A stretch of 64,000 bases of DNA from the NCBI RefSeq assembly GCF_009914755.1, contig NC_060926.1, one strand, 5' to 3'. The notes beneath the pieces were generated by a model. That model had not been told where the DNA came from and ran no database searches. It was given only the letters and a program-made list of their open reading frames with translations. Position 1 is the stretch's first letter. Each line of letters starts with the position of its first letter. The position numbers and the translations under genes are program-made. Shown one piece after another: positions 1,807 through 39,316 of this stretch. Source of the stretch: the human T2T-CHM13v2.0 reference genome, Homo sapiens.

Positions 1807-1883
1807 CATTTTATCTAGATGTTCAATGGATCTATAAATCTCCCCCTGGGATTCATCATAGTAACTGTAACGGAACCTTTGAC
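1807..1883 (-). CDS. MEMO1: MEMO1 coding exon (77 nt; [26 protein letters not shown])
   Basis: Translation matches MEMO1. AAG acceptor, donor GTAAGT 1801-1806. Phase 1/0. Confidence 0.97.
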
Positions 1884-3829: not shown

Positions 3830-5197
3830 TGACACTATTTTTCTCATTGCCAGGTGGCTGTGAGAAGGCTGCTCAGTGCCAAATCTAAAGTGCAGTTATA
3901 ATAATTTATCGATTCAATTCATTTGATACTAAATTTTTACTTCTATTTCAAAGTTATTTTGACAAAGCTGTCCAAAATCTTTCTGAAACAAATGAACACC
4001 TTAGACAAGAATATTCTGACTCACTCTCACTATAAGAACAATATTCTTGGAGGAAATCAAGGTAGTATACACCTCAATTCTTTGAACCTGAACTGCTTTA
4101 GGTTTACACTAATACATTCTCTTTTCCCTGCTTCTGGAAATAGCTGTTAGTTTTGGCTACTATCAGTAAGCCCTGAAACTGGGACATAATCTACTGCTAC
4201 TCCCAGGTTCAGAGAAAAACGCATATACTTCATGATAGTCGTTTGCTACTCAAAAGTCTTTTCTGCTTAATTCCAAGTAAAGAGTTGCTGTTCCAAATGG
4301 CTGAAGTTGGTCAACCCAGACTTAACAGTAAGTGAAAAGTCTATACTTTAAATTGCTATCTTGTTCATATGGACCATTTTCTATGTAACTTTCACTTTTT
4401 AAAAACTGCTTCTGAAGGAAAAAAAGAGGAAATGTTTGAAATACTTTAAAATACTGGATCGGCATGGGATTTAATGAGAATGCAAAAATGCACAGAGAGC
4501 CAATGGCAGTAAATGCCATCTACTTTTTGTTACTCTTTAGTAGCCACCTCATATTTAGTAACTGAAAAACTGACTATAAATATTTGAAGGACTCTAAAGA
4601 ATGTTTCGATTAAGTAGCTAAATCCACACTACATATAGCTACTACACTGAATAAATATTTTAGTTGCAACAGCTCAAATCGTCTCATGGTAATTTTTAAA
4701 AATTATACAAATATTTAAAAATCACTTGAGCAATGTATTCTGGTCAATATACATACAGAAGGCATCTAATTTGAAGTAAATAGTTGTCATCATCATAGCC
4801 TATATGTATGTGTGTATTTACGTATGTCTGCATACACACACACAACTTTAGTCAATCATCATTTAGAAACTGAGTTTAAAATACCACTTTTTGGTTTTTA
4901 TTATTTTAAAAGTGTCTCAAAATTTTATTTAATAATAAAGAAAATTATAGCACAAGTACAATAAACTGATCATAAATACACCTTTAACTAAAAATGTATT
5001 ATTGACTTAAAATAAATTATATGTATCTCAAGAGCAAATATATTTTATTTTTATAAGTTTTTGTGTTTCTGACATTCAGTAAAGGTTATGAATCTAAACT
5101 ATAAACAAATACAATTGCCCATGTACCTGGAGAACTGGACTTTTGTACTTTTTAAGTATGAATAAAGCGTATCACATAGTAAGAGAAAATTACTTAC

Positions 5198-5497
5198 CTG
5201 AAACTTATCCTTTCAGAAGGTACACTGGGAAAATGGATTCTTTGAGCCCCTGTTTCAACTCCAAGTATGAGCTTTCTAGCTTTAAGAGCCATTGACACTG
5301 CCCCTAGGGGCAGCACAAGCTTTGGAACTCCCCTAGTGAGTATGTCAGTAGTTTCTTCAGGTGCCTTCCCTCAGTTCTTTTCAAATTCAAAAGATGAGAG
5401 GAAAAATAACCCAAGAAAAAAATCCTGTAAAGCAGAAACCTTACTCTTTGAGGGAAGGAGGGTAGCTCATTTGTGAATCCATTCCAGAGCACGCTTT
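5198..5497 (-). other. Predicted 300-nt cryptic/poison cassette exon of MEMO1
   Basis: Minus strand: cTTAC branch-like motif, tttctttttctCAG acceptor, CAG|GTAAGT donor. In-frame TAG at 5304-5306 when spliced to the 10402 exon. No transcript evidence is available here. Confidence 0.55.
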
Positions 5498-6589
5498 CTG
5501 AGAAAAAGAAATACAGGTAAGTAATTTTCCCATCTCCAAAGGTGACTGGTGATTAATGAGTGGATTCACAGAGTGTGGAGAATAAGCTCCAGGGATGTCT
5601 GTTTAACACACAACAATCAACTAATGAGGACAAACATAACAATGAATGGTACAAGAACCAATGCTACTTTTTAAGTACCTTAAAACAAAAGGTAAAAGAA
5701 CAGTAAATACCTCAACATTAAGCTATGCACTGAACTGCAAAAATAAATAATGACCTTGGAAAGTTGATCTATAAAGCCCCCAAAAGATCAGTCAATAAGA
5801 TAGATTTTCAGATACATAAAATAAAAATTATACTGTCACACATTTACTTAATCACATCGTTTATATGCTAAGCCACTTTCAAATATTTAAGTTAAACCTC
5901 ACAACAACCTTGTGAGATAAATTATTAGGCCATTCTATACTAAGGACCCAACCTGGGGACATTCATAATTGAAATCACTACCAAAGAAAAAACGTATTTC
6001 ATAAAGGAAATATTATGTAAGTAGCATCAAATAAGGTAATCTCTTTTAAAAGCTAAATACGATCATCCTTTCAATCTGAAGTGCTAATGTATAAGTATTA
6101 GCCTTATCTCAAATCTGCAAAAAGTCAAAAACTAAATATGTAAAATCTGCATGTACAAATATTTGAGAAGACAAATATGATGGCTTGGTTAAGGTATATT
6201 TTAAGAATTAGCTAACTTACACTCAAACCTATTTAACTATTTAGAAAATAGCAACAGCCTTATACCCAAGAGACTGACAGAAAGGAAGAGTATGCATGAA
6301 TAATCACATTAATATACAGTAAAGAAGAAATCTGAATGTTATCAATTTCATAAATATTTAGGGGAATGCCACTTTTAATAAGTGGTATGTATTTATAAAA
6401 AGGTAGTTATGTAAACCAAAACAAATATAAATGTATGCATAAAAATTCAAAATTGCTGAAAAGACTACAGTAAACTTCTCATATTTAAAAAAATATATGT
6501 CATAAATATTCACCAAGTAAACTTATCTAAACTGATTTGTAAAACCACCATAAAAGGCAAATCAAATAAAGCATGAAGTCCACTTTTAC

Positions 6590-10401: not shown

Positions 10402-10544
10402 CCCAATGGCAGAAATCAGAAGAAACCACAAAGAGATTACTAGGATCCGCTAGATATTTACTGAAGAGTTTTCCGAATTCCTGTTCTTTTGACTCACTCA
10501 GAGCTCCAACCAGTACAGGAATAATGGTAAACTCATCCTTATGG
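10402..10544 (-). CDS. MEMO1: MEMO1 coding exon (143 nt; [14 protein letters not shown]...VVSSDFCHW)
   Basis: SSDFCHW motif, visible in ORF 10391..10576. AAG acceptor after a poly-T tract, donor GTAAGT 10396-10401. Phase 2/1. Confidence 0.97.
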
Positions 10545-39203: not shown

Positions 39204-39316
39204 TCTTTTGGTCAATACGAAGGTCATACAGAGGTGTCCTATATATATCCACACTGGAAAGTGCACATCGAGAGAGGGGCACATGATGAGAAGGCCCAAG
39301 GATGAAAATTCTCCGG
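39204..39316 (-). CDS. MEMO1: MEMO1 coding exon (113 nt; [37 protein letters not shown])
   Basis: Contains the GPSHH motif of the MEMO/AmmeMemoRadiSam family. AG acceptor 39317-39318, donor GTAAGT 39198-39203. Phase 2/1. Confidence 0.97.

What the first reader, a model, noticed from the sequence alone, without database searches (positions are those of the whole stretch)
5198..5497. Predicted NMD-coupled poison exon in MEMO1
The upstream exon ends in phase 1 (TGG G). Splicing to 5497 reads E-S-V-L-W-N-G-F-T-N-E-L-P..., the frame of ORF 5304..5492, and stops at TAG 5304-5306. That stop is about 106 nt upstream of the next junction (5198), beyond the 50-55-nt EJC rule. Inclusion would therefore trigger NMD or truncate MEMO1 just after the SSDFCHW motif, removing the C-terminal third including Cys244. 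Inference: a dosage-control switch for MEMO1.
Basis: partly seen in the sequence, partly recalled or inferred. Interest (0 to 1): 0.75.

Follow-up and report, generated by a model that had tools for sequence, protein, structure and literature searches.

The report
Self-locking poison exon in MEMO1
A hidden 300-base exon with a stop codon inside the human MEMO1 gene, already listed in a 2024 catalogue, is almost never used despite perfect splice signals, likely because its two ends pair into an RNA helix that hides them, while splicing drugs switch on a shorter 53-base version and MEMO1 mRNA falls.

Summary
In detail: 5497..5198 (minus strand) is a 300-nt AG/GT cassette with an in-frame TAG at 5306-5304, 106 nt before its end and 288 nt before the last junction. 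It is already catalogued as MEMO1 cryptic poison exon 7b (PMC11632617 table ST1: phastCons 790, GTEx maximum PSI 0.022 in brain, cycloheximide dPSI 0.0). A 53-nt form (same acceptor, donor 5444) is a published target of branaplam, HTT-C2, SMN-C3 and U1-GA; branaplam lowers MEMO1 mRNA (log2 -1.19). So poison exon: yes. Physiological dosage switch: unsupported so far. The predicted branch A pairs with the U of the donor GU; the region folds at z -5.4; opening the donor costs about 20 kcal/mol with the upstream arm and 7 without. This likely explains why the best donor of the window is skipped. The repeat also creates a mirror 300-nt exon-like unit on the other strand. No other genomic copy was found; a transposon origin is untested.

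The parts
5198..5497 (-). 300-nt cryptic poison exon (MEMO1 exon 7b)
   Evidence: listed as chr2_31886788_31887087_- in PMC11632617 ST1
5445..5497 (-). 53-nt short form: same acceptor, weak AGA|gtaagg donor; frameshifting, drug-inducible pseudoexon
   Evidence: PMC8674292 supplement rows print this acceptor and donor; PMC8894458 supplement
5304..5306 (-). first in-frame stop (TAG) of the 300-nt form
5205..5207 (-). second in-frame stop (TAA)
5514..5531 (-). upstream arm: 16-nt perfect (18 with one G-U) complement of the donor; holds the predicted branch point A at 5518
5183..5200 (-). downstream arm: perfect-consensus donor (5200-5192) plus following intron bases
5496..5513 (-). polypyrimidine tract and acceptor AG; imperfect inner extension of the upstream arm
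5201..5218 (-). 3' end of the exon; imperfect inner extension of the downstream arm
5439..5447 (-). internal weak donor (6 of 9 consensus), outside the long helix
5217..5516 (+). mirror exon-like unit of 300 nt on the opposite strand (pyrimidine tract + CAG, and CAG|GTAAGT), a by-product of the inverted repeat; no transcript annotated
10402..10544 (-). upstream MEMO1 coding exon, ends in phase 1
1807..1883 (-). downstream MEMO1 coding exon; holds the PTC (1817-1815) of the 53-nt form
5008..5915 (.). RefSeq functional element 'enhancer' overlapping the whole cassette
   Evidence: annotation added to the finding; not tested here

Best explanation
The 300-nt cassette is a conserved cryptic poison exon with the strongest splice signals of the region, and it is likely kept off by its own ends: the donor and the branch-point region are perfectly complementary over 16 bases and are predicted to pair in the pre-mRNA. 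Shown by sequence: AG/GT ends, in-frame stop 288 nt before the last junction, the inverted repeat. Shown in published tables: rare inclusion (PSI up to 0.022), high conservation, and drug- or U1-GA-induced use of the same acceptor with the internal donor at 5444, with a fall in MEMO1 mRNA under branaplam. Inferred: the upstream arm captures the donor as it is transcribed and outcompetes U1; the acceptor stays usable during the roughly 300 nt of transcription before the second arm appears, which is why the 53-nt form can be switched on; included transcripts go to NMD. The element would thus be a default-off switch, opened by anything that melts or delays the helix (elongation rate, helicases, RBPs), with the opening condition not identified.
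For: Donor 9 of 9 consensus, unique on this strand; the six annotated donors in the window score 7-8 of 9, yet PSI is at most 0.022: a silencer is needed. 16-bp perfect inverted repeat, the top-listed one in the 8.5-kb intron and the only exact 16-mer inverted pair within 1 kb in the window outside Alu-like and T-run stretches (Alu-like by recall). Chance from intron base composition 3e-8 over 45 places; 6e-7 if the branch pentamer is granted. The only YTNAY within 45 nt of the acceptor has its A at 5518, and it pairs with donor +2 U at 5196. Fold of 5160-5560: -139 kcal/mol, z -5.42, 0 of 100 shuffles as good; core pair probability 1.0 in 4 of 4 contexts computed. Opening the donor costs 19.9 kcal/mol with the arm, 6.7 without, and 2.9-6.7 for the six annotated donors. 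The arm binds this donor at -24.2 and seven other donors at -6.6 to -11.0. Branch region unpaired probability 0.58 until the second arm is transcribed, then 0.0. Known class behaviour: 25% of cryptic poison exons have a flanking conserved complementary pair; such helices control BRD2/BRD3 poison exons (abstract).
Against: All structure evidence is computed; no probing, covariation or mutagenesis, and no vertebrate orthologue could be fetched. U1-GA raises the 53-nt form by 74 PSI points, so the branch point is not locked outright; the kinetic rescue is my inference. Part of the complementarity is built in, because an anti-donor resembles a branch-point motif. Conserved complementary regions usually avoid branch points. 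Cycloheximide dPSI of 0.0 in A549 gives no direct sign of NMD of the 300-nt form. No condition with substantial inclusion is reported. Skipping could also come from protein silencers, not examined.
Confidence: 0.6

Rival explanations
1. A regulated physiological dosage switch: in some tissue or state, likely brain, a large share of MEMO1 transcripts includes the exon and is removed by NMD, which hides the flux at steady state.
For: phastCons 790 against a median of 280 for 394 cryptic exons; detected in brain with split reads at both junctions. Strong splice sites. MEMO1 is down-regulated during granule-cell differentiation by another route, so level matters in brain. Compatible with the helix as the control element.
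Against: PSI at most 0.022; dPSI 0.0 on cycloheximide in A549, 0.004 in TCGA, 0.038 in ENCODE knockdowns. None of 4 MEMO1 retrocopies carries the cassette (weak, since NMD isoforms are rarely retrocopied).
Confidence: 0.3
2. The stretch is conserved as a DNA enhancer; the exon and the inverted repeat are side effects, and the helix only keeps an accidental exon harmless.
For: RefSeq annotates an enhancer at 5008-5915 over the cassette (annotation in the finding). Very low inclusion. An inverted repeat also reads as a palindromic DNA site.
Against: The perfect pairing falls exactly on donor and branch point; G-U-compatible mismatches line the extension, which suits RNA. The assay behind the annotation was not seen (one search listed no MEMO1 paper).
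Confidence: 0.2
3. Origin, not exclusive of the above: the element is a relic of an old mobile element with inverted terminal repeats (DIRS-type retrotransposon ends, a resemblance recalled from memory and not tested) whose ends read as acceptor inward and donor outward, making a ready-made, self-silenced exon in either orientation.
For: Two-fold symmetry with a mirror 300-nt exon-like unit on the plus strand; only 1 of 24 loci examined had an acceptor-like tract on both arms; arm similarity continues inward beyond the core (41 of 5000 shuffles, 259 of 25399 window stretches reach the score); GC 0.41-0.44 against 0.20-0.36 in the flanks. Pre-amniote DIRS fossils exist in human (37) and DIRS-derived exons of TMPO and ZNF451 were inferred to bring an acceptor.
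Against: No second copy in the genome by DNA search or by pattern (16 vs 29 control; 9 vs 17 control). No similarity to 29.7 kb around the TMPO and ZNF451 relics (best E 0.14). No Pfam match in 8 reading frames (best E 0.25). Not among the longest masked repeats of the annotation. Selection for an RNA helix explains the symmetry equally well.
Confidence: 0.2

Closest known systems
MEMO1 cryptic poison exon 7b (Margasyuk et al. 2024, PMC11632617, table ST1)
   Same: The same exon: 300 nt, minus strand, same acceptor coordinate as the drug-induced form, classed poison.
   Different: A table row only; MEMO1 is not named in the main text, and no structure is given for it.
AGA|guaag pseudoexons (psiExons) induced by branaplam, HTT-C2, SMN-C3 and U1-GA, as in HTT (PMC8674292, PMC8894458)
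   Same: The 53-nt form is one of them.
   Different: Those exons are described as poorly conserved; this one borrows the acceptor of a highly conserved longer exon whose perfect donor lies 247 nt further on and is passed over.
[quoted passage not shown]
   Same: Poison exon looped out by complementary arms; likely sensitive to elongation rate.
   Different: There the arms are described as lying in the flanking introns (abstract); here they are the splice signals themselves, donor paired to branch point, which such regions usually avoid. Shown by mutagenesis there, predicted here.
TE-derived alternative exons: DIRS1-derived LAP2alpha exons of TMPO and ZNF451 (PMC4495291)
   Same: Proposed route by which an element with inverted terminal repeats brings a splice acceptor into an intron.
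   Different: Those are large coding terminal exons with protein homology to DIRS; no sequence link to the MEMO1 element was found.

Membership tests
Poison exon (NMD-coupled cassette exon) | Canonical AG/GT ends with branch point and pyrimidine tract | tested here: met
Poison exon (NMD-coupled cassette exon) | PTC more than 50-55 nt upstream of the last junction | tested here: met
   288 nt (300-nt form), 113 nt (53-nt form)
Poison exon (NMD-coupled cassette exon) | Spliced into mRNA in cells | tested here: met
   published table: split-read support 14, coverage 20, PSI up to 0.022 in brain; not re-analysed by me
Poison exon (NMD-coupled cassette exon) | Inclusion rises on NMD block | tested here: inconclusive
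   cycloheximide dPSI 0.0 in A549 only; brain cells not tested there; values for UPF1/SMG knockdown not in the row
Poison exon (NMD-coupled cassette exon) | Regulated inclusion sets host gene level | tested here: inconclusive
   only under drugs, through the 53-nt form: log2 -1.19 branaplam, -0.48 HTT-C2 100 nM, classed no change; correlation, not shown causal
Poison exon (NMD-coupled cassette exon) | Evolutionary conservation | not testable with these tools
   no vertebrate genomes on hand; published phastCons score 790 of 1000
Splice-modifier pseudoexon (nGA|guaag psiExon) | AGA|guaag donor and induction by compound or U1-GA | tested here: met
   donor at 5444; dPSI +24.3, +42.9, +74.1 from basal 0-0.07; log FC 4.94
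[quoted passage not shown] | Stable complementary arms enclosing the exon | tested here: met
   (computed)
[quoted passage not shown] | Pairing conserved across vertebrates, ideally with covariation | not testable with these tools
   no orthologues; catalogue is a track hub, 5 supplementary files searched had no MEMO1 row
[quoted passage not shown] | Breaking and restoring the helix changes inclusion | not testable with these tools
   needs a minigene or ASO
DIRS-type or other inverted-repeat transposon relic | Inverted terminal repeats | tested here: met
   34 nt at 76%, looser to about 62 nt
DIRS-type or other inverted-repeat transposon relic | Other copies in the genome | tested here: not met
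   these searches miss old, diverged copies
DIRS-type or other inverted-repeat transposon relic | Homology to a known element or its proteins | tested here: inconclusive
   no Pfam match, no match to TMPO/ZNF451 regions; no repeat library on hand

The most novel reading that the evidence does not exclude
A self-locking, two-way exon: one inverted repeat serves as branch point plus acceptor at one end and as perfect donor at the other, so the exon hides its own splice signals and works as a transcription-timed poison switch for MEMO1; it came in ready-made as the ends of an ancient inverted-repeat retrotransposon, a route by which elements could land harmlessly in introns in either orientation and be recruited as NMD switches.
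Probability: 0.12. Interest if true: 0.7.

Novelty: new variant of a known kind. Interest (0 to 1): 0.38.

Why it matters
The helix would explain a clear paradox (a perfect donor that is ignored while a weak one 247 nt upstream can be switched on) and gives a clean, testable case of a donor paired to its own branch point. It also names an on-pathway off-target of splice-modifying drugs: MEMO1 mRNA falls about twofold under branaplam in SH-SY5Y cells. A variant that breaks the helix is predicted to activate a poison exon without creating any new splice site, which splice-site scorers would miss.

Tried and rejected
Family of like elements in the genome: exact 11+11 pattern at 300-330 nt gave only this locus (control 0); 10+10 with one mismatch at 270-330 gave 16 vs 29 control; 9+9 exact at 60-120, 121-181, 182-242 gave 3, 2, 4 vs 9, 5, 3 control; spacings 243-269 and above 330 were not searched; none of 23 other loci resembled the cassette (best E 0.045). 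A profile search of the genome with the two arms could not be run, so diverged copies remain open. DNA search with 601 and 76 nt found only the locus itself. Rfam: 0 matches at E up to 1. Pfam on 8 of 19 open frames: none below E 0.25. Coding role of the cassette: rejected, stops in all three frames. Retrocopies: 4 found, 0 of 4 hit the cassette; the 630-nt insertion in L005 is unrelated and Alu-like by recall. DIRS link through TMPO/ZNF451: one 9-nt motif about 680 nt upstream of the TMPO exon, 1 in 29.7 kb, within chance; best BLAST E 0.14. Interior of the exon alone folds only weakly better than shuffles (z -1.9, 5 of 200). Blocking only the outer 10-11 nt of either arm did not free the donor in silico. 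Supplements without MEMO1: PMC8052449 (5 files), PMC10325915 (1 file), PMC9004415 (1 file); PMC10573301 supplement not readable.

Full report
1. Observation. On the minus strand 5497..5198 is a 300-nt stretch between a pyrimidine tract ending in CAG and a CAG|GTAAGT donor. Joined in silico between exons 10544..10402 and 1883..1807 it reads ...SSDFCHW-ESVLWNGFTNELP...SLCCP and stops at TAG 5306-5304, 106 nt before the exon end; a second stop lies at 5207-5205. The next exons were located outside the window with the help of retrocopies: a 105-nt exon and the last exon. The PTC is 288 nt upstream of the last junction and 104 native residues are lost.

2. It is already catalogued. Table ST1 of PMC11632617 (I read the supplement row, parts 1-3 of 7 of the text, and passages) lists chr2_31886788_31887087_-, MEMO1 exon 7b, poison, absent from VastDB and CHESS, phastCons 790, split-read support 14, coverage 20, inclusion/retention ratio 0.824, cycloheximide dPSI 0.0, GTEx brain, maximum PSI 0.022, TCGA 0.004, ENCODE 0.038. 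The median score of the 394 exons is 280. I ran no liftover; identity rests on the 300-nt length and on the end 31887087, shared with the branaplam pseudoexon, whose hg19 twin row prints this acceptor letter for letter. MEMO1 is not named in the main text.

3. A shorter form is the inducible one. An internal donor AGA|gtaagg at 5444 gives a 53-nt exon. Supplements of PMC8674292 (rows and passages seen) give basal PSI 0.07, +5.6 and +24.3 with HTT-C2 at 24 and 100 nM, +42.9 with SMN-C3, +74.1 with U1-GA, and a gene change of log2 -0.48 at 100 nM, classed as no change. PMC8894458 (supplement part 2 and passages seen) gives log FC 4.94 for the pseudoexon and -1.19 for MEMO1 under 100 nM branaplam in SH-SY5Y. 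This form shifts the frame to a stop at 1817-1815, 113 nt before the last junction. The fall in mRNA is a correlation; that it runs through this exon is inferred.

4. The only perfect donor motif on the plus strand lies at 5514, that is, the minus-strand branch region is the reverse complement of the cassette's donor. Positions 5529-5514 pair perfectly with 5185-5200, with one G-U and one G-C further out, and the register continues through tract and AG: 34 nt at 76%, listed first of 186 pairs in the intron. It is the only exact 16-mer inverted pair within 1 kb in the window apart from Alu-like and T-run stretches (Alu-like by recall). The only YTNAY within 45 nt of the acceptor has its A at 5518, opposite the U of the donor GU. 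Chance from base composition is 3e-8, or 6e-7 granting the branch pentamer; this ignores how the site was picked, but the genome holds one such 11+11 arrangement at this spacing. The region folds at -139 kcal/mol, z -5.42; the core pairs with probability 1.0 in 4 of 4 contexts of 400-1000 nt. Opening the donor costs 19.9 kcal/mol with the arm present, 6.7 when the arm is outside the folded stretch, 8.9 for the internal donor and 2.9-6.7 for the annotated donors. Before the second arm is transcribed the branch region is 0.58 unpaired, afterwards 0.0.

5. Mechanism. Best reading (0.6): a default-off poison exon that hides its own signals. The upstream arm is made first and waits; when the donor emerges it is caught in an intramolecular helix longer than the U1 duplex (U1 length recalled), so the exon is skipped in spite of the best sites of the region. 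The acceptor is open for about 300 nt of transcription, so a drug- or U1-strengthened internal donor can commit it first. Shown: sequence anatomy, low inclusion, drug induction. Inferred: helix formation in cells, timing, NMD of the long form. Against: the 74-point induction by U1-GA shows that the branch point can be used; no probing or covariation; cycloheximide had no effect in A549. Rivals: a hidden physiological switch in brain (0.3; compatible with the helix), conservation as a DNA enhancer (0.2; RefSeq element 5008-5915), and, for origin, a relic with inverted terminal repeats (0.2).

6. Origin. The repeat makes the element symmetric: the plus strand has a tract + CAG at 5216 and CAG|GTAAGT at 5516, again 300 nt apart; 1 of 24 loci examined had this on both arms. 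Arm similarity runs inward to about 62 nt, modestly above chance (41 of 5000 shuffles; 259 of 25399 window stretches; the innermost part 108 of 5000). From memory the ends resemble those of DIRS-type retrotransposons of reptiles and amphibians; this is a lead only. DIRS relics exist in human (PMC4495291, parts 1-2 of 3 read; PMC9004415 and PMC5753468, passages). My tests gave nothing: no other copy, no likeness to the TMPO and ZNF451 regions, no Pfam or Rfam match.

7. Comparison with what is known. It works like the BRD2/BRD3 poison exons, where complementary arms control inclusion (PMC10789245, abstract only). A quarter of cryptic poison exons have such a flanking pair, and these pairs obstruct cryptic sites but tend to avoid branch points (PMC8052449, passages). 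The difference here is that the arms are the donor and the branch point themselves. I found no paper that describes this helix: searches MEMO1 + poison exon (0 papers), MEMO1 + nonsense-mediated + cassette exon (1 listed, listing only), (listings only, apart from the papers named). The full PCCR catalogue is a track hub that I could not see (5 supplementary files searched, no MEMO1), the RIC-seq supplement was not readable and bioRxiv supplements are closed, so the pair may already be a row in those resources.

8. Verdict. Real feature; exon known; dosage-switch role not supported by present data; a predicted self-locking donor-branch-point helix is the new and testable part. New variant of a known kind, interest 0.38.

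Noticed in passing
window 1807-1883 (-): This annotated 77-nt coding exon is listed as a cassette with PSI 39.6 in control SMA fibroblasts, +25.2 with SMN-C3. Skipping it gives a PTC 64 nt before the last junction, a second possible NMD route, perhaps coupled to the pseudoexon; may be a low-count artefact.
   Followed up: partly
window 5445-5497 (-) with 1807-1883 skipped: The 53-nt exon plus skipping of the 77-nt exon restores the frame (96 residues after the W, normal stop), so a drug-induced NMD-escaping MEMO1 variant is possible on paper.
   Followed up: no
window 5433-5447 and 5486-5500: A second, nested inverted repeat (15 nt, 80%) pairs the acceptor AG with the internal donor of the 53-nt form; others: 5364-5373/5449-5458 (10 nt perfect), 5293-5310/5330-5347 over the stop codon, 5472-5484/5558-5570.
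   Followed up: no
L003 (G000:C6:136085086-136088228), L004 (C21), L005 (C23), L006 (C3): Four processed MEMO1 retrocopies, 73-98% identical over exon 10402-10544; L005 has a 630-nt insertion with an Alu-like core.
   Followed up: partly
L010 (G000:C2:119421664-119421979): An unrelated 316-nt stretch with long inverted arms (59 of 80 identical) found by the pattern search; no likeness to the MEMO1 element.
   Followed up: no
L016, L020, L021 (C7, C19, C19): Three pattern hits share sequence with each other, likely paralogous gene-family introns.
   Followed up: no
window 39204 donor (-): An annotated MEMO1 exon (39316..39204) itself ends in AGA|gtaagt, the splice-modifier-responsive type.
   Followed up: no
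L025:3430 (TMPO intron, about 680 nt upstream of the LAP2alpha exon): One anti-donor motif like the MEMO1 arm upstream of a DIRS-derived exon; single occurrence in 29.7 kb, within chance.
   Followed up: yes
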